A stretch of DNA of 64,000 nucleotides from Mobula hypostoma (taxonomy: Eukaryota), in NCBI RefSeq assembly GCF_963921235.1, contig NC_086097.1:170378001-170442000 (forward strand), read 5' to 3'. Shown piece by piece: positions 790-63,150 of the stretch. The notes beneath the pieces were generated by a model that was given only the letters and a program-made list of their open reading frames with translations, had not been told where the DNA came from and ran no database searches. Both the position numbers and the translations under genes were made by a program. How positions within the stretch are numbered: position 1 is the stretch's first letter; every line of letters starts with the position of its first letter.

Positions 790-2110
790 AGGCAAGACGT
801 TCATCTGCAATAACTCAGGTTGCATTTTGTCATACAGGTAAAGATGGACACTCACATGGGAACCAGCTATGCCTGCCCCTTCATAGCTACATAGAACAGT
901 CTATATTCTAAGCCTTCCCTGGTAATGCTCCCCAACTCTTCCTCTGACAACTGGATTGGAGCTGTTTCATGCACCCGTGCAGAGCTAATCAATTTCATCA
1001 CCTTTATCCCTAACTTCCACCCAGCCCTTAAGTTCACTTGGCCCACTTCTGACACTTCTCTCCCCTTTCACAATCTCTTTGTCTTCATCATGGAGACAAA
1101 CTGTCAACTGTCATCTGTCACCCCATCTTCATGCTGCCTCAACAGTGATAGAGTTCCTCTTGTCCTTACCTACTACCTCATGAACCTCTGCATCATCCTC
1201 TGTACTTTCTGCCATCTCCAACGACATGCCACCACCAAACGTAACGTTACCACACCCCCAGCTCCATTTTCTGCAGGGAATGTTCCCTCCAGGATTCCCT
1301 TGCCCATTTGTCCCTCCCCATTAATTTTCCTCCTGGCATTTATCCCTGTGAGCAACTAAAGCAGCAAACAGCTACATCTGCCCATTCACCTCCTCCCTCA
1401 CCTCCATTCAGGGCCACAAACAGTCCTTCCAGGTGAGGTAACACTTCACCTGTGAATCTGCTGGGGTCGTCTATTGTGTCCGGTGCTCCTAATGCTGCCT
1501 CCCCTACATCGGTGAGACCTATCGTAGAGTGGGGGACTGCATTGTTGAACACCTTTGCTCCATCCGCCAGAAGTCGAACTTCCTGGTGGCTAAACATCTT
1601 AATTATGATTCCCACTTCCATTCTGACATGTTGGTCCATGGTTTCCTCTTGTGTCAAGATGAGGCCACTCTCAAGGTGGAGGAGCAACATCTAGTATTCC
1701 ACCTGGGTAGCCTCCAACCTGATGGCATGAATATCGATTTGTCCTTCTGGTAAAAAAAAGATTCCCTCCCCCCCCCTTCTATTCTCCACTCTGACCTCTT
1801 ACCTCTTCTCATTTGCCTATCACCTCTCTTTGGGTCCCCTCCTCCTTTCCTTTCTCTTATGGTCCACATTTCTCTCCAATCAGAGTTCTTCTTCACCAGC
1901 CCTTCATCTTTCTGATCCACCTGGTTTGACCTGTCACCTCCTAGCTATCCTCCTTCACCCCTCCCCACTTTTTCATTCTGGCGGCTTCCTCCTTCCTTTC
2001 CAGTCCAGAAGAAGGGTCTTGGCCTGAAACTTTGATGGATTATTCATTCCCTAAGGTGCCTCCTGACCTGTTGAGTTCCTCAAGCATTTTGTGTGTGTTG
2101 CTTTGGATTT
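790..2110 (+). mobile_element. Penelope-like element (decayed RT remnant + GIY-YIG endonuclease + 3' tail)
   Basis: RT-like THMGTSYAC at ~850; GIY-YIG-like VVYCVRC..YIGET..GDCIVEHL...VEEQHLVFHLGSLQPDGMNID (1465-1745); pyrimidine-rich 3' UTR; tail GAAGGGTCTTGGCCTGAAAC...GACCTGTTGAGTTCCTC. Confidence 0.85.
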
Positions 2111-2869
2111 CTTCATGTCTGGGATATTGAAACAGAGCTAGTCCAAGTTATTTTATACTCTTCACAAGGTCTTCAGAGTATTTAGCACCTTTTTTCAGGT
2201 TCTTGGGATTAATTGAACTGCCGATAAATTCAATCCATGCATCATTATGGGGTTTGTCTTCCTTCGGCAGAAGCTTCATTCCTTTGCAAGATTCAGGGCT
2301 TTTGTTTTGTGAATCTCAAAAGTTCTACCCCATGTGATACTGTGGCAATAGAGCCCATGAGGGCAATGATTCTCTCCTCCGTTTGTGTAAATCTAGCTGC
2401 ATTTGATTTACCAGCATCTGCATGAGCAGAAGCAAGCTAACATTGCCAATGGAATCTAACTTACCCATGTCAGTATTTTATAGCTGGAGATTCATGTTTT
2501 GTCACTAACTATTGAAGAAGTCACAGCATTCCTCTGCTGCACCATGATTTGCTAATCTCTTCTCGGCTACACAATTGGGCAACGGACCTCGATGTAGGTA
2601 AAAACAGTTGTCTGTAAATGCATGGAGAAAAAGATTTCGTCTTTCCAAGGATCTTTGGGCCAGAGATTGGGACAAATTCAGAATGTTTGAGTACAAACTA
2701 TTCCAATAAAATACAATCTATCATATCCAGTCTAAATTTGTGTGGGGTTGGCAGATTTACTTATCTTGGTCTCTGCAGAAAACTGAATTAACTTACTTCT
2801 CAGCATCTTGATATCAATGATGAAGGACGGACATGAAATCATCTCTTAACCGCAGTTGCCTTCACTTTC

Positions 2870-10060: not shown

Positions 10061-13000
10061 CCAGTGTTGGGAAGACTGTGACGGTAGCAGCTACTACTCC
10101 CAACCCTACTGATTCTGGTGTCACTCTGAAGGCAGCGATCTCCTGGGGAAAGAACCCATGAAGGGTGAAAGCCTTTGTGGATTCTGGGGCAGCTAGTCAT
10201 TTCCTGGACTTGGGTACTGCCCAGCAGGCTCAACATACCTCTGCTGGAGTTGAGCCAGCCCATGCTTACGACCGCCTTGGATGGCCATCCTTGTCGGGCC
10301 TGTCAGATCCTGCAGCAGACATCAGTTCTTGTGAATGTGGATAGGGGAACATGTGGAGTATATTTGTTTCCATATCATTGATTCTCCTCACATTCCTCCT
10401 GATCCTCATGCAGCCTTCCCTTGGCCGTCCAAACATAACCCTTCTGTGAACTGGAAGGAAGGGAGAATCATTGTATGGTCAAGTCATCGCAAAAGGAAAT
10501 GTTTTCGGTTTGGTGTTCTGACCCCCAGACTCTCTGGAGACCAGTGGCCAATGAAGAGGCAAACTTTTTCTCGATGTAACCTGGAGAACTTCGGGAAATC
10601 CAGTCCCGCCTCCAAGGGCAGACAAACTAGCTCCAGTCAACAGGACCGTGCGAGTCTCGACCCTGTCTAGTAGGGAATGCAGTGGAGCTGGAGAGAGAGG
10701 GTCTCTGGCTCAGGAGCAAGCCAAGGAGTTTGCCAAAGAGGTGCCCAAGCATTCTGGAGCCCAAGCAGCCAGGCCTAAGGGAACTAGTCTTGAGTTCCCG
10801 TCGAAGGGAAAGGCTCCTAAACATAGACTCTTAGAGTGTAGCTCCAGGACATGTCAGGTCACTTGTCTGAGTCCAGTACTACCTGATGCATGGTCGGCTG
10901 GTCGGTGACTAAACCTGCTCCCCCACCAGGCTTGCCTGGTGAGGAGGGTGGCTAGACACCCTGCAGGACGAAAAACAAGACCTGTCAAAGGGTGGATGAA
11001 CCCTCTCATAGGGTCAACAGCGTTCTAGCAAACACGTGCTGTGAAGCGTGGAAAGGACATCCCTTGCATCGAAGCTTGGTCTGGCCATTCACTGCAACAG
11101 AACTTCCCCCAGCCGTCTTGGACCCCACCATGCACTGGATCCGGGAGGGAATGTCGAGAGGGTGGGTCTGGACCTATGCAACCACCTACTCACCTAAAAT
11201 CCATTCATGCACATGCTGCTCCTTTTTGAGGAGTGGAATATCCTAAACCTCACTAACTGACTGAAAGGAACCATTATCATCCTATGTGATGGATAGCCAG
11301 AGAGAGTTCCAGGACAAAAACTCTTCACAGTGCCTCGTTGCCATCATCTAAGGATACAGATGAGAATTTGGACTCTGTTTTGACCCCAGTGAACCTATGA
11401 AAGAGACTCTGAGGTCAGCTGGACCACTCCCGCTAGCAAAGGAGCCCCAGGAGTCATCTAAGGAGGGTTGTTGGGGGTGGTTGCAACACCCAAGCCAGTT
11501 GAAATCCCTTCTGTCTACAAGGATTTGGAAGAGACCTTCAACAAGGAAAAGGCCTCAACTCTTCCACCACACCAACCGTACGACAGTGCTGGAGATCTTG
11601 CTCCCCACAGGGTTGATTATACGTGCTCTCAGTCCTGGAGAGAAACACAACGGAGGAGTACATAAAGAAGGCTTTTGCCATGGGATTCATTCAGCCCTCC
11701 ACCTCACCAGCTGGCTCAGGCTTCTTCTTTGTACAGAAAAAGAATGGGAGCATGTGACCATGCGTTGATTATAGAGGGCCGAACTGCATAATGGTCAAGA
11801 ATCATTATTCCCTTCCACTCATAAACGCTGCCCCCAGAGTATTCTTGAAGCTAGACTTGTGGAATGTTCCATATAAAGGAGGGTGATGAGTGGAAGACTG
11901 CATTTAACACACTGACAGGGCACTATGAGTACCTGAGCGAGCCCTTTGGCCTCACTAATGCACCAGTGGTTTTCCAGGTGTGTTCTGGGATGCTATCCAT
12001 AAGTACACCTTTGTCTACTTGGATGACACCCTAATTTTCGCGTAGTCCATGGAGGAGTACATTACTCACGTCAGAGATACCTTGAAGAGGCTTCTGGATC
12101 ATGGACTTTATGTCAAGCTGGAGAAATCCGAATCTCACATAACCACCATTGCATTTTTAGATTTTATCTTCTGTAATGGCTATCTCAAGAGGGACCCTGC
12201 TAATATCCAGACAGTCAGAGATTGGCCACAACCATCCAATATGAAACAATTCCTGGAATTTTCCAATTTTTACAGAAAATTCATCAGGGACTTCATATTA
12301 GTGGCAGCTCTGCTGATAGCATAAAATGAAAGATTCATGGGCCATTTTGTTTGGGCTACCAAATCGGAGGCTGCTTTAGTAGGACTCAAACAACACTTCA
12401 CTACAGCTCCCATTTTGGTTTCATCTAACCCAGACCTTCCCTTGATCATGAAAGTGAATGCCTCAGACATCAGCGAGGGTGCAGTGCTGTCTCAACAGAC
12501 ACCTTCAGACAATAAACGCTTCCGAGTGCGTTCTGCTCCAGGTGGCAATCCCCGGAAAAAATGAATGATGACATCGGAAATAGAGAGCTGCTTGTGGGCT
12601 TTGACATTGTAGGAATGGCGTCACTGGTTTGAGGGGGCCAAAAACCCTTTATTGAATGGTGATGCCACAAAACCTGGCTTGTGTTCAGGAGGCCAAAACA
12701 CTGAATTCCAGACAGGCCAGCTGGTCTCTTTAACTAGTTCGATTTTGTTCTGGCTTAATGACCAGGGTCAAAGAATCAAAAACCACATGCCTTGGCTCGT
12801 CAGCTCAGCCAACCCAAAAGAGGGAAGCAGACTACCACCATTTTGCCCCAAGCTAAGGTGATAGTGCTCATTTGTTGGGGAATCAACTCACTTATTTGTA
12901 AGGTCCAGGCACAAGGGGAGATTCCCAAGAGTGGTTTTCCGGGTTGCCTGTTCGTCCCAAGTTCTGTCAGGTCTAAGGTACTTCAATGGGAACATGCATT

Positions 13001-13755
13001 GAGAATGACCGCACACCCAAGGGTTGCCAGAACCCTTGAGTTTACTAAGAGAAGGTACTGGTGTCCTAGAATGGCTAGAGAGGTCCGACCATATGTGTAG
13101 GCATGTGGTGGGTGCACCTAGAACAAGTTGCCTATACCCAACCTCAAGAGCTCCTTCACCCTCTACCCGTTCCGGACAGACCATGGGCTCACATCTCAAT
13201 GAATTTTGTCACGGGTCTTCTGCCTTCCAAGGATAAGACCATCATCATGGTAATTGTCAATTGTTTTTCAAAAGCCTGCAAATTCCTTGCATTGGTCAAA
13301 CTACTGTCAGCAGCAGAGATGGCTCAGATCGTCTGCATCAAGTCTTCAGGATCCATGGATTTCTGGTGGACATTGTGTCAGATTGGGTTGCACAACATGT
13401 GTCATATTTTAGGAGGGCATTCCGTATGCTGATCAGGGCTACAGTGAGTCTTTCCTCTGGGCTTCACTCATAGTTCAACAGCCAGATGGAGTGGGTAAAC
13501 CAGGATATGGAACGAACCTTGAGATGACTGACCTTAGAAAAATCAGGCGAGTGGTTCTGCATCACTCTTCCCTGAGAAGGAGAAGCTTTGCAGCCTGGGC
13601 AACAGGTCTGGTTGTCTACTCAGGATTTGCCTCTTCAGGTAGAGTCTAAGAAATTAGCACCAAAGTTCATTGGACCTTCTGAGATTCTCAAGAATGTAAA
13701 CCCGGTGGCTTACATATTGCAGCTCTCCAAGACCATCTCTGTAAATCCATTTCAT

Positions 13756-14716
13756 GCACGTCTGCTCTTACCCCATCCCCTCACCACCCTACCAGGGATA
13801 GGGTTCCTCTTGTCCTCATCTACCACACCACCAGCCTCTGTGTTCAGCACAAAATTCTCCTCAACTTCAGTCACCTCCAAAGAGATCCCACCACTAAGCA
13901 CATCTTTCCCTCCCTCCCATTTTCTGCTTTCCACAGGGATCACTCCCTACTCAACTCCCTTGTCTATTCGCCTCTTCCCACTGATCTCCCTCCTGGCACT
14001 TATCCTTGAAAGAGGAACTTACCCCTACACCTCCCCCCTCACTACCATCCAGGGCCCATCGTGAGTTTATTGGGGTCATTTACTGTGTTCGGTGCTCTTG
14101 GTGTGGCCTTCTGTATATTGGTGAGACCCGACGTAGATTGGGAGACGGCTTCGCCGAGCATCTACACTCTCTTCGTCAGAATAAGCAGGATCTTCCAGTG
14201 GCCACCCATTTGAATTCCACTTCCCATTCCCATTCCAATATATCCATCCAAGGCCTCCTCCACTGTTGTGATGAGGCCACACGTAGGTTGGAGGAACAAC
14301 ACCTTATATTTCACTTGGCTAGCCTCCAACCTGATGGTATAAACATCGATTTCTCAAACTTACGGTAATGCCCCCACACCCCGCTTCACCATTTCTCATC
14401 CCCTTTTCCCTCTCTTACCTTATCTCCTTGCCTACCCATCGCCTCCACATGGTGCTCTTCCCCCTTTTCTTTCTTCCATGGCCTTCTATCTCTTTCACCA
14501 ATCAACTTACCAGCTCTTTATTTAATTTCTCCCCCTCCAGCTTTTACCTATTACCTTGGGTTTCTCTCTCCCTTTCCCCCGGCCTTTTAAATCTACTCCT
14601 CAGCCTTTATTCTCCAGTCCTGCCGAAGGGTTTTGGCCCGAAACGTTGACGGTACTTTTTACCATAGGTGCTGCCTGGACTGCTGAATTCCTCCAGCATT
14701 TTGTGTGTGTTGCTCA
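13756..14716 (+). mobile_element. Penelope-like element fragment nested in Gypsy integrase
   Basis: GVIYCVRCSWCGLLYIGETRRRLGDGFAEHL...LEEQHLIFHLASLQPDGINIDF (GIY-YIG); 3' tail; degenerate duplicated flanks GTAAATCCATTT / GTAAATTCCACTT. Confidence 0.9.
14615..14652 (+). ncRNA. Minimal type-I hammerhead ribozyme-like motif (degenerate) in the Penelope 3' repeat
   Basis: CAGTC-CTGCCGA-A-GGGTT TT GGCCC-GAAA-CG-TT-GACGG gives stem I / CUGANGA-like core / stem II / GAAA / minimal stem III / UH / stem I'. Core A6 is C here, so activity is uncertain. Confidence 0.6.
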
Positions 14717-15005
14717 GGTAAATTCCACTTCCCACATTTCCACATTAAAATCTGTAAGCACCACTACCATCCGCCCCGTGGCCACCCAGGTTTGTCGATG
14801 GGAAAAGGTCTTCACTGTAAAAATAATTCTGGACTCATGAACTGTTTTAGTGTTCGGCTGCTGCACGTAGAGTGGGAAGGATTCGGACCTGAGGAATGGT
14901 GCTGGGTTCCTGAAAGGGTCACCTTGGATCTGGCTCTTATCCATACTACCATCCTTGTCTCTGAGCAGCCAAGGTCATCCGGAGTTGGTTGTATGGGAGG
15001 GGTCC

Positions 15006-15306
15006 TGTTACGATACACACCTGACCGCATCTAGGGTTTAGACGCTCTGACTCGCTATAATATGGATAGCTGGCATGCCCCTTTAAAGATTCAAGCCTGC
15101 CCCACGAATTGGCGGCCATGTTTTGGCACCAGAATTTTAGTATTTAAAGAGCACCTGAAATGAATCCAAAGCTCTGCTTTGGACTCTCATCTAGCGTCTA
15201 GTTTAATACCCTGTCCTTGTCTCAATCTCCTATCATGTCTTGATTCTAGTCTCAGATACTCGAGCACTTGGGTCTTTAACATCCTCGCCTAGGTGTTTTC
15301 GTCACA
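15006..15306 (+). repeat. 3' LTR of the Sushi-like Gypsy
   Basis: TGTTACGATACACA...TTCGTCACA, preceded by PPT-like GGGAGGGG; homologous to 8874-9182. Confidence 0.9.
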
Positions 15307-16296
15307 CAGTGGTGAATCTTTGGTATTCATAAGAAGATCAGTGGATTTCTGGAGGGATCTGAAGTAGTGTAGGAACATGGACCTGATGTAAAAGACCTGG
15401 CATAATCTTTATGAATATCTGAACAGGCTTGTTGGCTGAATGGCCTCTTCTTGCTTCTAATTTATCTTCTCTTGCATTACTCAGCATCAATATCCATTAT
15501 TTTGCTCAGTCTCAATAATTCATGAAATACCATCCTTTCAAAAAGATGCAGAGATGTCATATCTTGGTGTGCTGGCTCCCACTCTCATTTCTACGTTTTA
15601 ATTCACTTCTGTAAGTAGACAAAAAGTATTCTGCAATCTTATAATTAGACAGATGCATGTCATCTGTTTTAATTACTGAGCCAGCAGTGAAAAGCCATGA
15701 TCTGTGCAAAATTGGGACTCGGACTTGTACATGAGAGAAATGACAGATTTCTTAATACTGCAATTAATCTTCTTAGCATCTAAAATGAGAACTTAAATGT
15801 TCAGCTAACATTAATCAAAACAGTTCTAAATTAGGTTTAGAATTCTGTAAGGGCTAAAAATGAATCAATAAATTTAAGGTGACATGGTATTTCTGATTAT
15901 AGAGTACTGTTTAATGAATGATACTTGAAAACCAAACCAGAAAGCATTAAGTCAAATCGAGATTCTGGAGGTATTTTCTAGTAAATTATTTGTTGAACTT
16001 AAAACTGCTAACAGTTGTGTATGCTGATCCAATGTAGCTTGTATCTGCACTGTAAGTTCTCTGTGATTGAAGGTCACAACATCTTGAAGACATAAATACA
16101 TTTGCCCAGCTTCTCCATCTCTGCTACGTTTATTCTAATGGTCCCATTTCGCATATAATGTTGGTATACATTCTGTTTTGCTCAGCTGAACATTCACCTC
16201 CTTTGGGAATGACGGGAGAAAACTATGTTTATTTTCACATCTTTCTGCTGTTTTAGAAACTTATATTCTCTTTGTCCTTATCTTTCATCTTATCAG

Positions 16297-18399: not shown

Positions 18400-21300
18400 T
18401 CACTCGTATTCTCTTCGGTAGGCTGCAACAATCGCAAGCAGTCACTTGATTGGCAGGAATTTTAAAAAGAGCTCTGGTCCTTTTGGAACTTTTCAGTGGG
18501 CTGCAATCATAACAATGTCCTAGGCACACAGCAGTGGACAATAAATAGAAGGGGGGGGGGTGTAAGCGGAGCGGCTATTGTTGGAGTGAAACAGTGTTAG
18601 AGTGGTCAGGCTTAGGCAAGAACAGGCACAGGTTGGAATTTAAGCTTGAGAAGTTAAAGGTATTACGGGTGTAGGTCAGATGGCAGTTAAGACAGTGGGA
18701 TGTTCCTCCTGTAATATATGGGATTTCAGGGTACCAACAGTCTCCCAGATGACTACATTTACTGGAAGCGCACCTAAATTCAGCTCCTGACTGATAGGAA
18801 CGAGGAACTGGAGCTGGAGCTGGATGTACTCAGGACCATCCAGGAGGCTGAAAACCTCAAAGATGTGGTGGTCACCCCCAGAGTACTAGTAGTTGGGTGA
18901 CAACCAGGAGAAGTAAGGGGAGAAAGCAGTCAGTGCAGGGTTCTCCTTGGCCATTTCCCTCGGAAGCAAGTAGATTCCTTTGGATATTGTTGGGGGTGTG
19001 GAGGCTAATAACATACCAGGACATAGCTGCAACAGACAAGCCAGTGTCTCTGAGGCTCAACAGGGAAGGATAAAGTCAAACAGAACAATAGTGATAGTAG
19101 ACTCAATAGTTAGGGAAACGGATAAGAGATTCCATGACAGTGAAAGAAGTGCTTGGATGGTGTGCTGCCTCCCAGCTGCTAAGGTCTCGAATGTCCCAGA
19201 GCAGCTGCAGAAGATTCTCAAGAGGGAGGATGAGGAGCCAGCGGTCATGTTGCACACTGGCACCAATGACATCAGTAGAAAGGGGGAAGTGGTCCTGTGC
19301 AGTGAGTATAGGGAGGTAGGAAAGAGGCTGAAGAACAGGACCTCCAAGGTAGTAATCTTTGGATGACTCCCAGTGCCACGTGCTAGTTTGGGCAGGAATA
19401 GGAAGATAGTACAGGTCAATGAGTGGCTGAGGAATTGGCGTAGGGGGCAGGGTTACAGATTTCTTCTGGGGAAGGTATGACCTGTACAAAATGGATGGGT
19501 TACACCTAAACCCAAGGGGGACAAATATCCTTGTGGGTAGGTTTTCTAGAGCTATTGAGAAGGGGTTAAACTAATTTAGCAGGGGGATGGGAACAACACT
19601 GATAGGGCTGACAATGGGGCAGTTGGTATACAAGTCGATACAGTGAGTAGTGAGAATGTGAGGAAGGACAGGTAGGTGATAGGGCAAATTTGCAGTCAGC
19701 GGGATGAGTTGAGGTGTAACATGGGGGCAAAATCAAAAAAGGATGATGAATACAGGACTGAGGGTGTTATATTTGAAAGTGCAGTATACAGAATAAGGTA
19801 GATGATCTTGAGGAGCAGTTAGAGATTGGCAGGTATGATGTGTGGGCATCACTGAGATGAAAGAAGGTCATAGTTGGGAGCTTAGCACCCAAGGATACAA
19901 ATTGTATTGGAAGGACAGGCAGGTAGACAGTGGGGATGTGGTGGCTCTGATGGTAAAAAATGAAATCAAATCCTCAGAAAGAGGTGACATATGTAGTTTT
20001 GGAAGATGTAGAATCCTTAAAGGTAGAGCTAAAAAAAACTGCAGGGGTAAAAAAAAAACCCTGATGGGAGTTATGTACAAACCTCCAAACAGTCACCAGG
20101 ATGTGAGATGTAAATTACAATGGGAAATAGAAAAGGCATGTAAAAAGGGCAATGTTACAACAGTCATGAGGGATTTCTATATGCAGGTAAATTGAGAAAA
20201 TCAGGCTGGCGCTGGATCCCAAGGGAAGAAATTTGTAGAAAGCCTAGAGATGGCTTTTCAGAGCAGAGTATGGTTGAGCCCACTAGGGGAAAGGCACTTC
20301 TGGATTGCATGTCGTATAATGAACCAAATTTGATTAGGAAGCTTAAGTTAAAGGAATACTTAGGAGTGATCATATTATGCTAGATTTCACCTTACAGTTT
20401 GAGAGGGAGAAGATAAAGTCAAGTGTATCAATATTACAGCAGAGCAAAGTGAATTACAGAGGCATGAGAGAGAAGCCAGTCAAAGTTGACTGGAAGGGGA
20501 CACTATCAGGGATAACAGCAGAACAACAATGGCTGGAGTATCTGGGGGCAATTTGGAAGGCGCAGGATAAATACAGCCCAAAGATCAAGAAGTATTTTAA
20601 AGGAAGGACGAGAGAATCACAGCTGACAAGAGAAATCAATGACAGTATAAGAGGAAAATTGAGTGCATATAATATGGCAAAAATTAATGGGAAGTTAGAG
20701 GATTGGGAAGTTTTTTTAAAAAAAAATCAACAAAAGACAGCTAAAAAAAATAAGGAGAGAGAAGGTGAAATATGAAGGCAAGCTAACCAACAATATAAAA
20801 GAGAATATCAAAAGTCATTTCAGAGAAATAAAAAGAGAGGTGGGAGTGGATATTGGACCACTGGAAAATGATACTGAAGAGATAGTAATGGGGGACAAAA
20901 CATGACAGACGAACTCAGCAAGTATTTTGCGTCGGTTTTCACAGTGGAAGACACTAGCAGTATGCCGAAAATTTGAGAATATCGAGGGCAGAAGTGAGTG
21001 CAGTTGCTATTAATAAGAAGGTTGGTGTTTGGGAAACTGAAAGTAGATAAGTCACCTGGACCAGATGGACTATACCCCAGGATTCTGAAAGAGGTTGCTG
21101 AAGAGATTGTTGAAGCATTTGTAATGATCTTTTACAATCACTAGATTCTGGAATGGTTCTGGAGGATTGGAAAATTGCAAACGTCTCTCCACTCTTTAAG
21201 AAGGAAAGGAAGCAAAAGAAAGGAAATTACAGGTCAGTTAGCCTGAATTCAGTGGTTGGGAAGATGTTGGAGTCAATTAATGAGGATGAGGTTCAGGGTA

Positions 21301-22617
21301 CTTGGAGGAACATGATAAAATAGGCTAAAGTCAGCATTGTTTTCTTAAAGGGAAATCTTGCCTGGCAAGTTTGTAGAATTCTTTGAGAAAATAATAGACA
21401 GGATAGACAAATGAGAGTTAGTGGATGCTGTTTACTTGGATTTTCAGGAGGCCTTTGACAAGGTGCCTCAAATTAGGTTTATTAGGGTAAGAGCCCATGG
21501 GATTACAGGAAAGATACTAGTATGTATAGAAGATTGGCTGAGTGGCAGGGGATAAATAGTGGGAATAAAGGGGGCCTTTTCTGGTTGACTGTTGGTGACA
21601 TGTGATGTTTTACAGGAGTCAATATTGGAAATGTTTCATTTCACTTTATACGTCAATGATTTGGATGATGCAATTGATGGCTTTATGGCTAAGTATGTGG
21701 ATGATGCAAAGATACGTGGAGGGGCAGGTAGTTTTGCGAAGGCTATTAGTCTGTAGAAGGACTTAGACAGACTGGGAGAATTGGCAAAGTGGCAGATGGA
21801 AATAGTGTTAGGAAGTGCATGGACATGCACTTTGGTAGAAGGAATAAAGGTGTAGACTATTTTCTAAAAGGGGAGAAAATTCAAGAATCAGAGGTGCAAA
21901 GGGACATGGGAGTCCTTGTGCAGAATTCTCTAAAGGTTAACTTGCAGGCTGAGTTGGTGGTAAGGAAGGCAATTGCAATGTTAACATTCATTTTGAGAAG
22001 ACTAGAATTATTACAAGAAGGATGTAATGATAAGGCTTAATGAGGCATTGCTCAGATTGCACTTAGAATACTATGAGCAGTTTTAGGGACCTTGTATAAG
22101 GAAAGATGTACTGGCTTTTGATAGGGCCCAGAGGAGGCTCATGAGAATGATCTCAGGAATGAAAGGGTTAATATATGAGGAACATTTGATGACTCTGGGT
22201 CTGTACTCACCAGAGTTTAGAAGAATGGGCGGGGGGGGGGGTTGGAATTTCATTGAAACCTATTGAATATTGAAAGACTTAGACAGAGTGGATGTGAAGA
22301 GGATGTTTCCTCCAGTGTGTGAGTCAGGGGACCAAAGGGCACAGCCTCAGAATAAGGGGACATCCATTTATAATAGAGGTAAGATAGAATTTATTTAGCC
22401 AGAGGGTGGTGAATCAGTGGAATTCATTTCCTCGGAAAGCTGTGGTGGCCAGTTCATTAGGCGTATTTTAGGCAGGGGTTGACAGGTCAGGGCATCAAAG
22501 GTTATGGGGAGAAGACAGGAGAATAGGGTTGTGAGCGATAATAAATCAGCCATGATGGAATGGTGGAGTAGATTCAAAGGGCCAAATGGCCTAACTCTGC
22601 TCCTATGTGTTACGGTT
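18400..22617 (+). mobile_element. Near full-length CR1 LINE (ORF1 Zn-finger + SGNH esterase; ORF2 APE-RT), pseudogenised
   Basis: ORF1: CSSCNIW ~18700, VIVDSIVR, CCLPAAK, HTGTND, DGLHLN (GDSL/SGNH). ORF2: GITE, YKPPN, DFY, EPTRGKALLD (APE); KSPGPDG, YLDFQEAFDKV, YVDD ~21694 (RT). CR1 3' UTR to 22617. Confidence 0.92.
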
Positions 22618-22625
22618 ATATATAT

Positions 22626-23442: not shown

Positions 23443-23908
23443 TATGCTGCCTGACCTGCTGAATTGTTCCATCATTTTGTGTCTGTGGCTCCAAATCCAA
23501 AGTTGCACTTCACCCTGGATCCCATGTTTTTTTTTATCTTCTAAATCAGTTTATAGGTCGACATTGGTTATATCTACAATATTACCCTCATCAAGCTCCT
23601 TTGTTAGCTCCTCAAAAAGTCAATCAGGTTTGTAAGGTATGACCTGCCCTACATAAAGCTATGCTGGGAGGGTCAGGCAGTATCTGTGGTGGGGAAAGGT
23701 ATAAGCTGAAATTTTGGTTTGAGATCCTGCATCAGTAAAGAGAGGGAGGAGGAAGGATTCCCATTATGCTGTAGTTGAAAGGTGGGGTGAGGGTTGGTGG
23801 GTGGATAAAAGAGACTTGTAGATAGGTGGAACCAGATGGGGAGGGGATGATTGGCAGCTAGAACCAGGTCTAAACAGGAGATGTGGGAGGTGACCAAGGG
23901 GGTTAAAA

Positions 23909-28761: not shown

Positions 28762-30605
28762 TAGAAACATAGAAAACCTATAGCACAATATAAGCCCTTC
28801 GGCCCACAAAGTTGTGCCGAACATGTCCCTACTTTAGAAATTACTAGGGTTACCCATAGCCCTCTATTTTTCTAAGCTCCATATACCTATCCAAAATTTT
28901 CATAAAAGACCCTATCGTATCCGCCTCCACCACTGTTGCCGGCAGCCCATTCCACGCACTCACCACTCTCTGCGTAAAAAACTTACCCCTGATGTCTCCT
29001 CTGTACCTACTCCCCAGCACCTTAAACCTGTGCCCTCTTGTGGCAGCCATTTCAGCCCTGGGAAAAACCCTGACTATCCACACGATCAATGCCTCTCATC
29101 ATCTTATACACCTCTATCAGGTCACCTCTCATCCTCTGTCGCCCCAAGGAGAAAAGGCCGAGTTCATTCAACCTGTTTTCATAAGGCATGCTCCCCAATC
29201 CAGGCAACATCCTTGTAAACCTCCTCTGCACCCTTTTCTATGGTTTCCACATCCTTTCTGTAGTGAGGCGACCAGAACTGAGCACAGTACTCCAAGTGAG
29301 GTCTGACCAGGGTCCTATATAGCTGCAACATTAGCTCTTGGCTCCTAAATCCATTTCCACGATTGATGAAGGCCAATACACCGTATGTCTTCTGAACCAC
29401 AGAGCCAACCTGCTCAGCTCCTTTGAGTGTCCTACGGACTCGGACCCCAAGATCCCTCTGATCCTCCATACTGCCAAGAGACTTACCATCAATACTATAT
29501 TTTGCCATCATATTTGACCGACCAAAATGAACCACTTCACACTTATCTGGTTTGAACTCCATCTGGCAATCCTCAGCCCAGTTTTGCATCTTATCAATGT
29601 CCCACTGTAACCTCTGACAGCTCTCCACACTGCCCACAACACCCCAAACGCTGGAGGAACTCAGTAGATCGGGCAGCATCCGTGGAAACGATCAGTCGAT
29701 GTTTTGGGCCAGAACCGTTTCCACGGATGCTGCCTGATCTGCTGAGTTCCTCCAGCATGTTGTAAGTGTTGCTTTGACCCCAGCGTCTGCAGATTATTTT
29801 GTGTTCACAACATCCCAACCTTTGTGTCATCAGCAAACTTACTAACACATCCCTCCACTTCCTCATCCAGATCATTTATAAAAATCACGAAAAGTAAGGG
29901 TCCCAGAACAGATCCCTGAGGCACATCACTGGTCACCAACCCTCCATGCAGAATATGACCCATCTACAACCACTCTTTGCCTTCTGTGGGCAAGCCAGTT
30001 CTGGATCCACAAAGCAATGTCCCCTTGGATCCCATGCCTCCTTACCTTCTCAATTAGCCTTGCATGTGGTACCTTATGAAATGCCTTGCTGAAATCCATG
30101 TACACTACATCTCCTGCTCTTCCTTCATCAATGTGTTTAGTCACATCCTCAAAAAATTCAGTCAGGCTCGTAAGGCACGACCTGCCCTTGACTATTCCTA
30201 ATCATATTATACCTCTCCAAATGTTCATAAATCCTGCCTCTCAGGATCTTCTCCATCAAATTACCAACCACTGAAGTAAGACTCACTGGTCTATAATTTC
30301 CTGGGCTATCCCTACTCCCTTTCTTGAATAAGGGAACAACATCTGCAACCCTCTATTCCTCCGAAATCTCTCCTGTCCCCATTGATGATGCAAAGATCAT
30401 CACCAGAGGCTCAGCAATCTCCTCCCTTGCCTCCCCCAGTAGCCTGGGGTACATCTCATCCAGTCCTGGTGAATTATCCAACTTGATGCTTTCCAAAAGC
30501 TCCAGGGCACCCTCTTTCTTAATATCTACATGCTCAAGCTTTTCAGTCCACTGCAAGTCATCACTACAATCACTAAGATCCTTTTCCATAGTGAATACTG
30601 AAGTA
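28762..30605 (-). mobile_element. CR1 LINE 3' half (RT to 3' UTR)
   Basis: SPGLDEMYPRLL, VYMDFSKAFHKVPH, KFADDT, LYRTLVRPHLEYCAQFWSPHYRKD, FFTQRVVSAWNGLP. Confidence 0.93.
29648..29805. mobile_element. Short foldback element built from Penelope 3' tail, with 13-bp TSD
   Basis: Inverted arms 29650-29690 / 29716-29756; TSD CACAACACCCCAA (29635-29647) / CACAACATCCCAA (29806-29818); interrupts CR1 RT. Confidence 0.85.
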
Positions 30606-33249: not shown

Positions 33250-35034
33250 TAATTAGTTTCAAAATCAAAGTTATGGATGCAAAGGAGGGAATGTTTACTC
33301 CAGTAAAAGGTTAAAGCATTTACTTTGTTTCTCTATCTATTAATGTTGTCTGACCTGCTGAGTATTTGTTTAATAAAACTTTTTGTGTTTTATTAATACA
33401 AGGGATTCTGCAGATTATGGAAATCAAGAGTAGCACATGCTGGAGCATCTCAGCAAGTCGGACAACATCCATGAAAAGTAATAAAGAACCTTGAAGGGTC
33501 TCAGCCTGAAACATCAACTCGCTGAGTTCTTCCAGTATTTTGCATTTGTGCTACTTTGTGTTTTCATTACTGTATTTAGAGTCAGAGCATGGAATCAGGC
33601 CCTTCGGCCCTAGTCATTCATGCCAATTCTGTAACCTACCAAACTCATCGCTTTTGCCTACATTTAGTCCATATCCCTCTGAACCCCTCCTATCAATGTA
33701 TTTGAATATCTTTTGAATGTTGTCATTGTACACCTCTCAACCACTCTGTCATAAACACAACATACTCTTTGTGGAGAAGTGCCCTTCAGGTTCCTTTTAA
33801 ATCTTTCCCCCTTTACTTTAAACCTATGCCCTTAAGTTTTAAGTTCATATTACCTGGGATAAGGACTATGTACATTCACCCTAATAATGTCCCTGATGTT
33901 AAGGACACCCCTCAATCCCCTACACTCTGAGGAACAAAGTCTTTGTGTCAGCCCATGAATCCAATAACTGTGCAAGAAGCCTTCTCGCTGAAAACCACTC
34001 CTCAGTCACCTTTGCAAGAAGCAAACTGACATTTTATTTTAGCACTCAATTAAAATTACCGGTCGACAGAAACTTAATCCTAAAACTGGGAGCAGGAAAT
34101 GGAGGCTAGTAGGAAGACATTCATCTGTTGATTTTGGATTCTGGATTTCCTGTTGTGCCATCCTGGCCTCCAGCATCAATAGAGAATGCTGTTTCTCAAA
34201 GATAATTTTGTATCATATGAACTTGACCCAACACAAATTGAGACTTTGATGGTCATGGAGTGGTATTCCACCAGCATGGAAACAACTCATTAGAAGAGTG
34301 CATGTTGCCAACTTGTTGTTTTACTACAGGCAATAAGCAAGTATAAAGCTGTTCGAGGATTCAGACCAACACATATTGGAAAAGTTTTCCAATATTCACA
34401 GTGTTGGGCACAAATAAATTAAAAGAGAATTGCTCAGTTACATTTGAGCTGTGATTTAGCTGGGCATAACTTAACCTGTCCTCAGAGTTAGCTTGTGGAG
34501 TTCTAGTCCTTGTTTATACCTTATGAATAATTCTTAATGCTTTCCCTGTCTTTAATGTTGGGAAACATAACTGCATAACCAATGATGAATGGAGGGAAAA
34601 ATGAAATAATTGGTAAAACAGGATATTCTCTTTGCAAAGAATTAAATTGATGTGAATTCAGCATAATTTTCTGGGTGAATAAGTGTCATGTTTTTAAGTG
34701 AAACTTGAAGGTTTCTTTCGATTTACAAAATGACAGCATTTTGCAGAAGTGACAGGCACAATTTAAGACTAAATAACATAAAACAATACTCGAATGGGTG
34801 AAACCACAAATGCTGGAATCTAGAGCAACAAGCAATATGCTGGAGGAACTCAGCGGGGCTGAGATTCTGAGAGGGGTGAAGAATTGTCAATATCCTGCTT
34901 CAGAACTGAGCGTGCAGAGGAGAGATAGCCAGTATCAAGCGGATGAAGTATACTTACATGATTCATGAACACATTTCTTACCTACCTGATTACACTTCTG
35001 GTAGCTTTTGTGTTCCTGCTTATAACCCCTCCCC

Positions 35035-40970: not shown

Positions 40971-42689
40971 AACCCTGCTTCTCCTTCCTCAGCTGCTGTT
41001 CACCTGCTGAGTGTTCCCAGCATTTTCCACCCTTGTTTCAGGTTTATAGGATTCTGCAGCAAGTGAAAAGCTGACGCCTGAGGACGTACAGAATCAGACA
41101 GTGGAGACAATAAAACACGAAGCCACAGAAGCTGATGCCTGGTTTGTTTATCAAGAACCTGTGGAAAGCTGAAAGAAGGTGCTGTCGTGCTTTAGGCTCA
41201 CTGAGGGGGATATGATTGAGGGTTTTGCTGCTTCTTCTGCTAACTTTACACGGATTGAATTGTGTTTAAGTGATGGATTAGTGAAGTTAAATGTGAGGAA
41301 GAACTAAGCAAAAATTTTATTGACTTGCACACATAAGTATGTTCACATTGTTTAAATGAGAGCTTCTTAATTATCCAAGTGCTTTTAATGTCACACTAAA
41401 TTTCATTAGGTGATATACTGAAAAATAGGAAATTTCATTCCAATTGCTGTTCATTTGCTTTTAAATTAGATAATTTTGATGACTATTATTGAATTATTTA
41501 TAAAGGGCAATAAAAATGATGACGGATGGGAATAGGATACTTGGAACCCAACAGACTAATTGTGATCATGCTGTAATTGAGCTGAAAATTGTTGTCCAAG
41601 AGATTTCTAAAACCAGGTCAAATTCTTAAAGGGACTTGACTTAGCATAAAGCAATGACTGATCAAACCAAGTGAGCAATGCTGATGGCATTTGAAAACTT
41701 TAACACTGAACCTTCTCATTTGATTGAATCACCATCCACTCCCACTGAGCATCAGTTCCCTCCACTACCGGTATATCATAGTGCCAAAATATGGCAAGGC
41801 TGTTCTCCTTCTGAAGCTTATCACGTCGACAACTATGTTAAGCAAGTCTGTGGGGTGTCTGAACTGTTATCAGTTTCCCCACCAAGACTCACACCATTTT
41901 AGAAGCTATCTCACCATTTCATCATCATCATTGGGTTTGAGAGTTAGAACTGCAGACTTAGCAGGGCTGTAGGGCTTTCTTCACCATTGGATATAATGGT
42001 TCAAGAAGGCTGCTCACCACAATCCTTTGAAGGAGAATTAGGGATGTGCAATAAACACTGACCTTGATGGTGTGAAGTAGAAGGCAACAATAACTTTGTA
42101 ATTGGTTTAGAGTAGAGATGCCATACATTTTATTTAGTTCACCAAAACTGTCACATGCAGCAGGCATTGCTAAAGACAAGAGGCCCCAATGTGGCAAAGG
42201 TTAATGTGGTCAGCAGTGTGATTAAAGATGGCCACTATAGTGATCTTGAGCAACACGCACAAAATGCTGGAGGAACCCCGAAGGTCAGGCAGCATCTGTG
42301 GAGGGGAATAAAGTTTCAACCTTTCAGGTCAAATACATTTATCAAGAATGGAAAGGAAGGGGGCAGAAAGAATAATAAGTTTGGTGGTGGGAAGAGTGGC
42401 AGTACAAACTGGCAGGTGATAGGTGAGACCAGGTGAGGGGGGATGTCTTTTGTGTTATAGTCATGTGATAAGATGTACACCCATGCAACAGGATGTCACT
42501 TGATCATGTGTATAAAAGAAAGAGATTTTTTCATTGATAAAGGCAACTTATTTGAAATGAAGCTGGGAGTGTTGTCAAGGACCAAACTGGAGATGATGTG
42601 TATACATTTGCTATTACTAGAGCTTTAGAACAGTGGAAAGGATATAAGAACATTGTTTGATTTTCTCTTAAGAGCTATTTATTTCAGAA

Positions 42690-48961: not shown

Positions 48962-50589
48962 AATCTTGAATGCCCCTTATCATCTTATATATCTCTATGT
49001 ACACATCTCTCATCCTCCTTCACTCCAAAGAGAAAAGATCTAGCTCGCTCAACTTTTCCTCATAAGACAAGCTCTCTAATCCAGAAATAGAAGGCTATAG
49101 CCTGGGTCCAGATAGATGACACTGGACACCAGGGTTTTACTGAAAATTGACTTTTTTGCCTGAATCTATGAGAGTGTAGAGTTGGTGGCTACCTGGGACA
49201 AAAGATGCTCTCCAAACAATTTATTTTCTGAAACACATATGGAAAATATTGGATTAGGCAACCTTGCCAGCTGTCAGTGGTTCAGGAGGGAACATCTACT
49301 GTTCAGCAGTTTAAAAGTACAGGCCATCACTGGCTAATGGACACCCTTACATAGGGATAAGCACCAACCATATTACTATATTGAAAAGTTCTACTTATGT
49401 ATTTGTTCATTGTTATGAACAGCAGAGCTAGTTTGTTGTCTCTCCACTTTTAGTAATTGTTCCTTGTTGGCCTTGTGTGCTTTTCATGCCATTCGTTACG
49501 TTATGTGGAGGTGTGGTCACCATATCGAGTGCATTTTCTCTTAAGAAAAGCAATTAATTGTAAATACAGGATATCTCTAGGTTACAAGTTCCAGACTCAT
49601 GGATACCACTGTGAAAGAATGGGCTCCCATGATATTATTGGATTCAAAATTCTGCTATATGTACGTACATTCATTCTTACAAATAGCAGAATTAGATTCT
49701 TCTCTCTCTTTCCACTTTTAGTAATTGCTCTTTCTTATCAGTCTAATGTGCATCATTACACCTCTGTGGAGGTATGGTCATTATATCAAGAGTCTTTTTT
49801 ACATACATTATGCTGACCTATGTGCAGAACTGGATGTCTATTAATCCGATCTCGTTCATTTTCTGGGGACAACCTGTGGTGTGTTCAATAGATTTGGTGA
49901 AACTGAGGAGTGTGGAAGCAAAAGTAGGTGGGTCAGATCCGCCTCGATCTTACTGAATGGCAGAATAGAATCAGAGATGTCATCACTGATGAGCATGACA
50001 TGAACTTCGTTGTGTTTGGAACTGTACATTGCCTTGGTTTATAGATAGGCGAGTGGTAGAGTCTTAGGGTTGGGGGGTGGGGGGTGCGTGGTGAAGGTTG
50101 TTAGAGGTGTGGGGTGGATTAAATAGGCCTGTGTAGGAGTGTAAAAATTGGCACTTGACCGTTGACTCTCTTCCATAGATGCTGCCTGACCTGCTGAGTT
50201 CCTCCAGCATTTTGTATGTGTTGTTTTTGATTTCCAGCATTTGCAGACTTTCTCATGTTTACATCCCTCCATTCTCAATATGCTTGAGTGCCTCTTAAAT
50301 ATCAGTATCACATCTGCTTCCATCATTTCCCCTGATAGTGTGTCCCAGCACCTACCACTCTGTGTTTTTAAAAAAATAGTTTAAACTTTCCTACTTTCAC
50401 CTTAAAGCTATGTTTTCCAGTATTTGATGCTGGAAAAATGATGCTGCCTACCCTGTCTACACCTCTCATTATTTTATAAGCTTCTATCACATTTCCCCTT
50501 GGCTTCTGGTGAAGCAGAGAAGGTAATTCCTGTTTTATTGGATTCCATTCCAACTGCATTGTTTTTCCAAGAAAACAATCGATGTCATT

Positions 50590-51290
50590 AATTCCATCCA
50601 GTGCTCCTGGTGCAGCCTCCTCTACACCAATGAGACTGGATGTGGACTGGAGGACCATTTCATTGGGCACCTTCACTCTGTCTGCCAGAACAGCCAGGAA
50701 CTACCCATGGCCAGCTATTGTTATTCCACTTCCCATTCCCACACTGGCATGTCTGTCTACTGTCTCTTCTATTACCAGGTTGAGTCTAGATACAGATTAG
50801 AGAAAGAATACCTCAACTTCCATTTTGGTAGTCTTCAATCTGCATCAATATCAATTTCTCTAACTTCCGGTAGCCACATCCTTCCCTTTTGTTCCCCCTT
50901 ATCTTTTGTTTTTGTTTATCCTTCTGGCCCCTTTACCCCTTCTCTTTCCACTCACCCTCCCTCACTCAGACCTTCTTCCCTCTGCTTCCCCACCTCCCTT
51001 GGTCCACGATCCTCTCCCACCAGATTCCACCTTCAGCCCTTTATCTCTTCCACCTATCCCCTCTCAGCTTCTCACATCATTCTGACTTCTCACCTCCCCT
51101 TCTCCCCTCATCTGGATTCACCAATCACCTGCTAGCTCATGCTCCTCACCTTCCCCCATCATTTTATTTTGTCTTCTCTTCTCTTTCTTTCCAGTTCTGC
51201 TGAAGGGTCTTGGCCCAAAACATTAACTGCCTATTCCTCTCCATAGAGACCTTCTGACCTGCTGAGTTCCTCCAGCATATTGTGAATGTT
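50590..51290 (+). mobile_element. Penelope-like GIY-YIG and 3' tail fragment
   Basis: STSHSHTGMSVYCL...RLEKEYLNFHFGSLQ; tail CAGTTCTGCTGAAGGGTCTTGGCCCAAAACATTAACTG...GACCTGCTGAGTTCCTCCAGC. Confidence 0.85.
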
Positions 51291-52461
51291 GAATGTTAAG
51301 AAGACTTTTACTCTACTGACCAAGGAGACAGGTGAAGAATCTTCCACTTCACACTTGCTGTCACTCAATGAAGCCTCTGTTAGCTCAACAGCATAGGCAT
51401 TGGAGGGAGTTCAGGGTAAGTTTACCAGACTAATAGCTGGACTGGGAAGTTTGTCTTATGAGGACAACCAAATGAAGAGACTTGACCTTAGTCCAATTCC
51501 CTCTACAAATGTTGCATGATCTGCAGCTTATTGTTTTGTTGCTGCAGTTATGAAAAATAGGAGGGAATTCGATTGAAAAAATAAATCCCTCAGGATTATT
51601 CCCTGGGTGGGTATGGAAAGGGTATTTCCTCGAGAACTACGGAACAGAGAGCTGCCCATTTAGTATGTTTGAGGTGAAATTACTTTCAGATAGTCCTTTT
51701 AAATTTTCTTCCACAAGAAGTAGAATCCACAAAGACATGGATATTCACTAAGCCAGGAGATGAATGGTTGCCAGCGATTATAGTTCATTGGAAGTTTCAG
51801 AAGATTTCATATGTCACCCAAGACTCCAGCAAATTTCTACAGATATACAGTGGAGAGCATTCTGACCGATGACATCACACCTGCTGTAAAGGTATCAATG
51901 CATAGGATCATGAGGACTCAGAGGGGGTAGAGACAACCAACACCATCATGGGCACAAGCCTCCCCACCATCGAGGCCCTCAAGAGCAATAGTCATCATTA
52001 AGGGCCCTCACAATGTGGAACATGCCCTCTTCTCATTACTACTATCAAAGAGGAGGTACAAAAGCCTGAAGATCCACCCCTAACTTTTAGGAACAGCTAA
52101 AACAGTAGACAGAATTCATTATTCATACCATCAGGTTGTAGCCTACCCAGGTAGAATATGAGGAGCTGTTTCTCAAGTTTGTGTTTGGCCTCACCCTGGC
52201 AGTAGAGGAGACTGAGAGCAGTCAGGTCAGTGTGGGAATGGGAAAGGGAGTCAAAATGATCTTGACCTAGCCCAAAGCCATGTGATTGTTCTTCACTGAA
52301 ATATAATTAAAATTGTATGATTAAGAATAACATAGCCAATTTAGTCTCATTAAGGCTCCACAAAAAGTGATAATAAACAGATTTATTTGGAGTTGCTGGC
52401 TGAGAGATGAACTTCAGCTAAAGGACTAGGGCAGCTCCCAGAGTCTTCTTCAAATTAGTAA

Positions 52462-53190: not shown

Positions 53191-54079
53191 AACCCTATTA
53201 GATTTTAAAATAGCAATGGAAAAGGAGTAGGTCAGGTCCACAAGTTAGGGTCCTTAAATGATGAAATTAGGCAGTGTGTGGCAGAGGATGAATGAAAAGG
53301 AATAACAAGTGGAAGGCATTTAGGAGAGTGATATCAAGAGTCTACGTGCAGCATGTTCTCAATCGGGGAAGGGTAAAACTGACAAATTTAGGGAAGCTTG
53401 GTTGACGAGAGATATTGAGGCTCAGATCAATAAAAAGAAAGAAGCATACATTGGGATTATGAGGTTGGGGATGAATGAACCCCCTGATAATTATAAAAAT
53501 TAAGAATACTCATAAAAGGGAAACCCGGAGGGTGAAAAATCAGTTCGACAGTACTTAGTTAGGTATGTTGATAGGAAAGATGCAGAAGGATATGGGCCAA
53601 ACACAGAGGTAGACCGGAATCTTAGTCAGTATGGATGAGATGGGCCGAAGAGCCTGATTCCGTACTGTATGATTTTATGATTCAATGATGTTTTTGAGTG
53701 CTGAGTGTACAGGAAAGAGCACCCATGGATACATTCCTACTGAAAGCAGTTCCAAGTTCTGGCAAAGGCTCTTGGACCAGAAATATTGACTGTTTCTTTT
53801 TTTTTTACAGATGCTGCCTATCCTGATGAATTTTTCCAGCACTTTTATTTCAGTTTTGCATCATCTGCGATGCCCCCTTTTACATTTCCAACTCAATGCT
53901 TCTGAAAGAAATAAAAATTTGCAATGTATTGGTGGGTTAATACTCAGGAAATGAGGAGGCTTTCACCCTTGGCTTTGAATGATCTCGGTATCAAAATGTG
54001 GAAAGAGGATAACTGGAGGTATAAAATGACAAGAAAAAAATTGAAATATCACAAATATATAAAAATGATTTAAAGGCTT

Positions 54080-58959: not shown

Positions 58960-59325
58960 TTGCAGCATTTAGAAATCCAAAGCAACACACACAAAATGCT
59001 GGAAGAATTCAGCAGGTCAGGCAGCATCCAGGAAATCAACAAACGGTCGATGTTTTGGGCTGAGACTCTTCTTCAAGATTGGAAAGAAAGGGGGAAGGTG
59101 CCAGAATAAAAAAGGGTGGGGGAGGGGAAGGAGGATAACTAGAACGTGATGGGTGAAGCCAGGTGGCTGGAAAAGCTAAAGGGCCAGAGAGGAAGGTATC
59201 TGATAGGAGAGGAGAGGTGGACAGTAGGAGAAAGGGAAAGAGGAAGGGTGCCAGTAGGAGGTGATAGGCAGGTGAGAAGAGGTAAGAAGCTAGAGTGGGG
59301 AATAGAAGGAGAGGGGAGGGCGAGG
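58960..59325 (-). mobile_element. Penelope-derived 3' UTR/tail fragment inserted in the 3' LTR
   Basis: Reverse complement of the tail (GCTGCCTGACCTGCTGAATTCTTCCAGC; hammerhead-like 59044-59081) plus pyrimidine-rich UTR. Confidence 0.8.
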
Positions 59326-63040: not shown

Positions 63041-63150
63041 GCAAAAGGTGGTGCTCTGGATAGACATTAAACTCAGGATTTCCAACATCTGCAGGATCTT
63101 TTATGTTTATGCACCTTGCTGTTCTGACAAAGATCTTTTATCTTGAAATG

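What the first reader, a model, noticed from the sequence alone, without database searches (positions are those of the whole stretch)
14615..14652. Penelope-derived tail repeat contains a minimal hammerhead ribozyme fold, in several copies across the window
Seen: copies at 2001-2038(+), 14615-14652(+), 51192-51229(+) and 59044-59081(-), with weaker ones at ~23705-23735(-), ~33490-33520(+), ~42318-42350(-), ~53755-53792(+) and ~63120-63150(+). They share the layout CAGTC-CTGNNGA-A-GGGTCTYGGCCC-GAAA-CG-TY-GACTG. Stem I is CAGTC/GAC(G)G at 14615 and CAGTT/AACTG at 51192, consistent with covariation (could also be deamination). Established: Penelope-like elements carry minimal type-I hammerheads (CUGANGA, GAAA, near-absent palindromic stem III) thought to act as dimers; an extra A after A9 occurs in natural hammerheads. 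Inference: the ancestral consensus CAGTCCTGATGAAGGGTCTCGGCCCGAAACGTCGACTG is a self-cleaving RNA, and this family seeds ribozyme relics every few kb. No copy here has a fully canonical core; two carry CUGC(C/U)GA, possibly a subfamily variant.
Basis: partly seen in the sequence, partly recalled or inferred. Interest (0 to 1): 0.7.

Follow-up and report, generated by a model that had tools for sequence, protein, structure and literature searches.

The report
Penelope hammerhead relics, shared A6C core
These repeats are decayed end-pieces of a Penelope-like jumping gene in a ray-type genome and carry the already published minimal hammerhead ribozyme motif, likely inert at these spots; the one less ordinary point is that the flagged copy's altered catalytic letter (A6 to C) is likely shared by a whole subfamily.

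Summary
Observation confirmed. The motif lies 247 bases after the stop of a 5'-truncated Penelope-like GIY-YIG frame (81% identical to a Mobula protein; likely Neptune clade). The same layout holds at 2001 and 51192. Eighteen tail fragments lie in the window (0 in a reversed control). Their majority has a canonical core and fits the published minimal hammerhead consensus of Penelope-like elements (Cervera 2014). No copy has an intact core, none has a tandem partner, and covariation in 12 copies does not exceed shuffles. The kind is known, and this scan noted it repeatedly before in this and other genomes. One addition: among about 45,000 contigs per DNA run laid on this copy, only 28-38% of depth reads A at core position 6, against 82-98% replacement at five private sites, in three organisms. 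A neutral simulation gave 81-99%. CUGCCGA is therefore likely an amplified subfamily state. A6C is published from a phage ribozyme, where it lowers Mg2+ activity and favours Mn2+. The simplest reading is that cleavage is not needed for insertion. Activity is untested.

The parts
14615..14652 (+). Minimal type-I hammerhead motif: helix I 14615-19/14648-52 (4 of 5 pairs), core 14620-26 with C at position 6, extra A 14627, helix II 14628-31/14636-39, GAAA 14640-43, palindromic ACGU 14643-46, predicted cut after 14647
   Evidence: Sequence, core table, published consensus
13749..14368 (+). 5'-truncated, broken Penelope-like reading frame: linker and GIY-YIG endonuclease with its stop
   Evidence: tblastn with P0002, E 7.5e-76; 81% identity over 101 aa; GIY-YIG in 4 of 6 relatives, below Pfam's cut-off
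14369..14614 (+). Pyrimidine-rich 3' region of the element, upstream part of the pseudo-LTR
   Evidence: Aligns with the same region of the 2001, 51192, 59081 and 40670 copies at 57-66%
14653..14716 (+). Conserved end of the pseudo-LTR downstream of the hammerhead; the insertion ends here, without the further tail kept by some copies
   Evidence: Depth falls from 1.8 million to 1,374 after 14719 in X1, and loose ends continue into a shared tail
13741..13753 (+). Left copy of a decayed target-site-duplication-like repeat; right copy at 14718-14731 (12 of 14 columns match)
   Evidence: Read from the junctions printed; no chance test run
13597..13740 (+). Gypsy-type LTR retroelement fragment (Tf2-like SH3) into which the Penelope piece inserted
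   Evidence: PF24626, E 8.6e-13, profile positions 1-48 of 64
844..2117 (+). Second relic: end of RT, linker and endonuclease (844-1750), hammerhead relic 2001-2038 (U4A, G16.2U, C11.1U), terminal part
50563..51294 (+). Third, more diverged relic: endonuclease (50563-50872), hammerhead relic 51192-51229 (A6C, G12A, G16.2A)
58961..59320 (-). Tail-only relic with hammerhead remnant 59044-59081 (C3U, G12A, G16.2A)
42235..42435 (-). Tail-only relic with hammerhead remnant 42313-42350 (U3 and A8, helix II lost)
53752..53844 (+). Short relic that begins at the hammerhead (A6G, G8A)
23663..23766 (-). Decayed relic with the CUGAUG part of the core left
29638..29791 (.). Two terminal pieces in opposite orientation, joined inside or just after the hammerhead
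   Evidence: Hits 29638-29720(-) and 29716-29791(+); inverted truncated partners are described for Penelope-like elements
33408..33548 (.). Second inverted pair of terminal pieces; the + piece holds the 3' half of the hammerhead (33492-33520)
   Evidence: Hits 33408-33486(-) and 33492-33548(+)

Best explanation
The motif is the minimal hammerhead of the 3' pseudo-LTR of a Penelope-like retroelement (likely Neptune clade), left here in dead, 5'-truncated insertions that are likely inert, and the C at core position 6 of the 14615 copy was likely inherited from an amplified master copy. Shown: position behind a GIY-YIG frame, family membership, fit of the majority to the published consensus, broken cores in all window copies, high share of C6 among laid contigs. 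Inferred from Cervera 2014 and Frangieh 2024: in an active element two motifs would pair through the ACGU palindrome, or one would be folded by the element's protein, and cut after position 17. Inferred: reverse transcription starts downstream of the motif, so every insertion long enough copies it passively; CpG decay then destroys G8, G12 and the palindrome. Inferred: a C6 master could spread because insertion does not need cleavage.
For: Frame and motif are linked at 3 of the 5 endonuclease relics found in the window; the other two end before the motif. Six of six long relatives examined were scanned; five show RT plus C-terminal GIY-YIG. The window majority has C3 U4 G5 A6 N7 G8 A9, the extra A, G10.1-C11.1 and GAAA, and folds into helices I and II as its minimum-energy form. 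The proposed register pairs 70.7% of cells against 23-52% for slid registers. In one search the CpG letters 14625, 14639, 14640, 14644, 14645 and 14648 are deaminated in 3-21% of depth, including catalytic G8 and G12. At 14623, A is read in 36, 38, 28 and 37% of depth in X1, X5, X14 and X22; five private sites (14609, 14651, 14661, 14679, 14687) are replaced in 82-98%. A one-family neutral simulation gives 81-99% at 14623 for seeds of 11-19, while mixtures with 10-50% C6 copies give 27-40% at one seed length each. In Anolis, core mutants abolish cleavage but not insertion in vitro (PMC11167929).
Against: No cleavage, RNA-end or genome-wide alignment data. Covariation is not above shuffles. The C6 share is a remainder: 43 rows of the table were hidden and depth is no copy number. 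Laying on a C6 copy favours C6 contigs; an earlier, cruder simulation gave 64-86% for seeds of 11-15 but 0-48% for seed 19 under the null, so seed bias is not excluded by every set-up. That run used a poor ancestor and few counts. Neither simulation reproduces the shares at 14632 and 14634 well. No RT tree was built, so the clade rests on motifs.
Confidence: 0.8

Rival explanations
1. The C6 subfamily kept a working but throttled ribozyme: slow in Mg2+, faster with Mn2+ or with the element's protein, so that uncut template RNA is favoured until late in the cycle.
For: In the 14615 copy A6C is the only core change and the palindrome and helix II are intact. A6C ribozymes still cut: 0.067 per min at 1 mM Mg2+ and 0.18 per min at 0.3 mM Mn2+ for an engineered mutant, 0.31 per min at 1 mM Mn2+ for the phage variant (PMC7151607 table). 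The Anolis ribozyme needs its protein.
Against: Those rates come from fully structured monomeric hammerheads. Minimal ones are already very slow as dimers, and A6C cost over 10,000-fold at 0.3 mM Mg2+. An intact rest of the core may only reflect a young subfamily.
Confidence: 0.1
2. C6 is ordinary private decay, and its high share among laid contigs is an alignment artefact.
For: The two C6 copies in the window are distant from each other, which shows that A6C can arise independently. One null set-up gave low shares. Depth over the core is only about a twentieth of that over the tail, so strong filtering is at work.
Against: Flanking private transversions at 14609 and 14651 are replaced in 87-97% of depth in the same lay. 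The better simulation never fell below 81% where counts were above 100. One printed X5 contig shows another locus with C at positions 6 and 7 (table 5c).
Confidence: 0.25
3. The 14615 copy is a functional, possibly co-opted self-cleaving RNA at this locus.
For: It is the most complete motif in the window.
Against: Its lowest-energy fold is a different hairpin (z 0.32). The hammerhead dimer scores -9.9 against -27.4 kcal/mol for the best alternative dimer (nearest-neighbour energies ignore tertiary contacts). The nearest same-strand motif, 12.6 kb away, has lost the palindrome. It sits in a dead element nested in another retroelement.
Confidence: 0.03
4. The motif is a chance hammerhead look-alike in a repeat tail.
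For: No Rfam match; single-copy descriptor hits are not clearly above chance; no covariation signal.
Against: All 11 fixed core letters, the extra base after A9, G10.1-C11.1 and a U-rich 5' flank appear in the family majority at the place where Penelope-like elements are known to carry the motif.
Confidence: 0.02

Closest known systems
Minimal hammerheads (min-HHR) in pseudo-LTRs of metazoan Penelope-like elements (Cervera and De la Pena 2014, PMC4209133; parts 1-2 of 4 of the text and parts 1-2 of 3 of the supplement read)
   Same: Type-I layout, CUGANGA plus one extra base, G10.1-C11.1, GAAA, two-base palindromic helix III remnant, short helix I, U-rich 5' flank, position after the ORF, mostly solitary 3' copies of truncated elements.
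   Different: No cartilaginous fish appears in its Table S1 or Figure S3 list as read; none of the aligned representatives has C at position 6; helix II here is short (4 bp).
PAc hammerhead of the Anolis Poseidon element (Frangieh-type in vitro study, PMC11167929; passages and part 2 of the main text read)
   Same: Vertebrate Penelope-like element, hammerhead in the pseudo-LTR, optional short tail beyond the usual 3' end.
   Different: PAc is Poseidon clade and was shown to cut with protein help; this family has the Neptune-type linker and is untested.
A6C hammerhead of phage Bcep176 (PMC3088659 and PMC7151607; passages and rate table read)
   Same: C in place of A at core position 6.
   Different: Single phage monomer with full helices, Mn2+ preference measured; here a minimal motif in a high-copy vertebrate retroelement with no activity data.
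Non-LTR retrozymes of animals (bioRxiv 10.64898/2026.07.22.740005; parts 1-2 of 5 and passages read)
   Same: Type-I hammerheads related to Penelope pseudo-LTRs; reported in one chondrichthyan genome.
   Different: Retrozymes are tandem arrays with a motif in each unit; these copies are dispersed and attached to ORF relics.

Membership tests
min-HHR of metazoan Penelope-like elements | Lies in the pseudo-LTR downstream of a Penelope-like ORF | tested here: met
   About 250 bases after the stop at 14368 and 1750, about 320 at 50872
min-HHR of metazoan Penelope-like elements | Core CUGANGA, GAAA and NUH in the family consensus | tested here: met
   Majority of 12 aligned window pieces
min-HHR of metazoan Penelope-like elements | Canonical core in the flagged copy itself | tested here: not met
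   C at position 6; 0 perfect cores in the window. The copy is filed as a variant or relic, not as an intact member.
min-HHR of metazoan Penelope-like elements | Extra base between 9 and 10.1; G10.1-C11.1 pair | tested here: met
   A at the extra position in 10 of 11 pieces with a letter; G-C in 4 and G-U in 3 of 11
min-HHR of metazoan Penelope-like elements | Palindromic 15.2-16.2, no stable helix III | tested here: met
   C-G in the 14615 copy and in most of the laid depth (5-18% deaminated per letter); CA or TG in 5 other window pieces
min-HHR of metazoan Penelope-like elements | Compensatory changes in helices I and II | tested here: inconclusive
   12 decayed pieces; 3 pairs with a two-sided change, 161 of 500 shuffles as high
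min-HHR of metazoan Penelope-like elements | Self-cleavage as dimer or with protein | not testable with these tools
   Needs an assay; contigs cannot show RNA ends
EN+ Penelope-like elements, Neptune clade | [quoted passage not shown] | tested here: met
   CxxC before the YIG and two histidines in P0001; RT plus GIY-YIG in 5 of 6 long relatives; definition from PMC8557442 passages
EN+ Penelope-like elements, Neptune clade | CX2-5CxxC linker motif, absent from Penelope/Poseidon | tested here: met
   C-x4-C-x2-C in the close relatives P0002, P0003, P0004 and P0006; broken but alignable in the window copies. Shared with Nematis.
EN+ Penelope-like elements, Neptune clade | Placement in the Neptune clade on an RT tree | not tested
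   No named reference RTs were fetched; the preprint found only Neptune and Poseidon in vertebrates
Non-LTR retrozymes | Tandem array with a complete hammerhead in two or more consecutive units | tested here: not met
   Copies are dispersed or inverted and none is complete
Rfam hammerhead families | Score at the gathering threshold | tested here: not met
   0 matches in the window; no hammerhead model up to E 10 in 14500-14760
A6C (C6) hammerhead variants | Mn2+-favoured cleavage | not testable with these tools
   Only the letter C6 is shared

The most novel reading that the evidence does not exclude
A Penelope-like master with a CUGCCGA (A6C) hammerhead core amplified to high copy number in an ancestor of several rays. 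It would be a retroelement subfamily built on a core variant so far described from a phage, and a natural test of whether Penelope elements need ribozyme cleavage: either they spread with a crippled ribozyme, or the variant is tuned by Mn2+ or by the element's protein.
Probability: 0.6. Interest if true: 0.45.

Novelty: new member of a known kind. Interest (0 to 1): 0.25.

Why it matters
The general finding only extends a 2014 result to another fish lineage. The C6 subfamily, if real, bears on an open question: what the hammerhead does for Penelope-like elements, given very low activity in vitro and no need for it in an insertion assay. Comparing A6 and C6 subfamilies in copy number, age, length and tandem structure would test this in a genome, and the assay is cheap.

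Tried and rejected
No whole genome was held, so no genome-wide consensus or subfamily tree. Rfam: nothing. A hammerhead pattern in metagenome contigs: 0 hits; a tail pattern: 0 in viral contigs and 7 in metagenome contigs, all 7 matching only about the 21-base pattern itself and rejected as chance. Two protein searches with a chance translation across the motif, meant as an independent count of A6 against C6, found nothing. No RNA holder was listed for 13000-16000; X22 is only guessed to be RNA and its contigs do not cover the flank after 14730: no evidence on expression either way. Lunse et al. (PMC5785218), the main survey of small Penelope hammerhead variants, is not held; I saw only its citation and a review's summary, so an A6C family listed there cannot be excluded. 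Paper searches for A6C or CUGCCGA with Penelope or retrotransposon terms and for elasmobranch or batoid terms with Penelope listed no paper on this family; only the top listings were seen, and bioRxiv supplements and Repbase or Dfam were not available. The downstream flank looks chromodomain-like by eye but gave no Pfam match. The first dimer energy included a non-standard pair and was replaced. The simulation had a poor ancestor and was redone; both are reported.

Full report
Observation. The four main copies stand at the coordinates given. Two profiles built from window copies each hit 18 places at E<=0.01, and none in the reversed window. That is one tail fragment per 3.6 kb, about half of which reach into the motif. 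Four of the five weaker copies belong to the family; 63120 was not recovered. No copy has a perfect core. A descriptor with one mismatch finds two (14620, 2006), against 0.55 on average in 20 shuffles. Rfam finds nothing.

What carries it. The frame ending at 14368 encodes a GIY-YIG domain 81% identical to a Mobula hypostoma protein and 64-74% to three Hypanus sabinus proteins, so the host is likely a ray. With that protein, tblastn maps five relics in the window: 844-1750, 13749-14368, 50563-50872, 40964-40670(-) and 52258-52112(-). The first three continue into the motif; the other two end before it. Five of six longer relatives have RT followed by GIY-YIG. The CX2-5CxxC linker motif in the close relatives marks Neptune or Nematis rather than Poseidon (PMC8557442 passages); I built no tree. 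The 14615 element is a 5'-truncated insertion of about 970 bases in a Gypsy-type fragment, with a decayed duplication-like repeat at both ends. Two inverted pairs of terminal pieces (29638-29791, 33408-33548) and an optional tail beyond 14716 match the described architecture of these elements.

The motif. The majority of 12 aligned pieces has the canonical core, an extra A after A9, G10.1-C11.1 and GAAA, and folds into helices I and II. This fits the consensus of Cervera and De la Pena 2014 point by point. Every window copy is damaged: 2001 by U4A and G16.2U, 51192 by A6C, G12A and G16.2A, 59081 by C3U and G12A, 42350 by loss of helix II. The 14615 copy differs in the core only by A6C. Its preferred monomer fold is another hairpin, its hammerhead dimer is far from the best dimer by nearest-neighbour energy, and it has no tandem partner.

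Evidence from outside the window. I laid 4 of the 24 listed runs on 14500-14800 at 80% likeness: 47,730, 44,342, 44,394 and 5,150 contigs from organisms A, B, G and A; X1 may be the window's own sample. The family is thus very abundant in three organisms, though depth is no copy number. Most listed variation in the motif is at CpG letters, including G8 and G12 (4-21%), as expected of neutral decay. At five letters private to this copy, 82-98% of the depth shows another letter. At core position 6 only 28-38% shows A. The rest is taken as C; in X1 the single C-to-G place listed is elsewhere, but a C-to-T row could be among the 43 hidden rows. Position 7 stays C in most of the depth, and G8 decays as a CpG partner would.

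Control for bias. Laying on a C6 copy favours C6 contigs. A simulation of one A6 family under neutral decay gave 81-99% A at this site for seeds of 11-19 (12 settings; 4 further settings with seed 23 had 30 counts or fewer and gave 100%). Mixtures with 10, 25 or 50% C6 copies gave 27, 32 and 40% at seeds 19, 15 and 11. An earlier run with a poorer ancestor gave 64-86% at seeds 11-15 and 0-48% at seed 19. The tool's aligner is unknown to me and the simulations fit 14632 and 14634 poorly. I put the chance of a real C6 subfamily at about 0.6-0.7. The 51192 copy is too distant to belong to it.

Mechanism. In an active element the motif would cut the transcript after position 17, as a dimer through the ACGU palindrome or with help from the ORF protein (inferred). 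Reverse transcription starts downstream, so the motif rides along in each insertion and then decays. A6C lowers Mg2+-dependent cleavage strongly and spares Mn2+-dependent cleavage in two prokaryotic-type hammerheads. In Anolis, core mutants do not affect insertion in vitro. The simplest account of an amplified C6 master is therefore that cleavage is dispensable for insertion. A throttled but working ribozyme is the rival (0.1).

Novelty. Minimal hammerheads in Penelope-like elements are published, and this scan has noted the same family many times in this and other genomes. My searches of papers and of earlier findings showed no report of an A6C subfamily, but the main survey of such variants could not be read. 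Verdict: a correct catch of a known kind, interest 0.25, with one testable side lead.

Noticed in passing
window 14600-14617 and the same place in the 2001, 51192 and 42350 copies: The 5' strand of helix I is preceded by a pyrimidine run and contains CAG, like a 3' splice site. In Drosophila virilis Penelope the intron end maps to the 5' end of helix I. A second acceptor-like run lies in the tail after 14716.
   Followed up: no
window 42313-42350(-): This relic has U3 and A8, a published functional covariation of the core, but helix II is lost; two independent transitions would explain it as well.
   Followed up: partly
window 14632: Only 41-56% of laid depth shows C here, more T than the simulation predicts; a second shared variant in loop II may exist.
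   Followed up: no
window 29638-29791 and 33408-33548: Two inverted pairs of terminal pieces; in both, one piece starts inside the hammerhead.
   Followed up: partly
window about 12900-13740 and 14718-15000: Decayed Gypsy-type LTR retroelement on both sides of the insertion; SH3 match upstream, chromodomain-like text downstream without a Pfam match.
   Followed up: partly
window 20622-22616, 35103-37063, 46469-47107, 35266-35931: Several LINE-like repeat families; two frames give weak RT matches below Pfam's cut-off.
   Followed up: no
window about 22620-23440: Long purine-rich simple repeat that is open in all six frames and ends directly on a terminal piece of the Penelope family at 23444.
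   Followed up: no
window 63078-63150: A tail-like piece precedes the unconfirmed 63120 motif, so it may be a very old relic of the family.
   Followed up: partly
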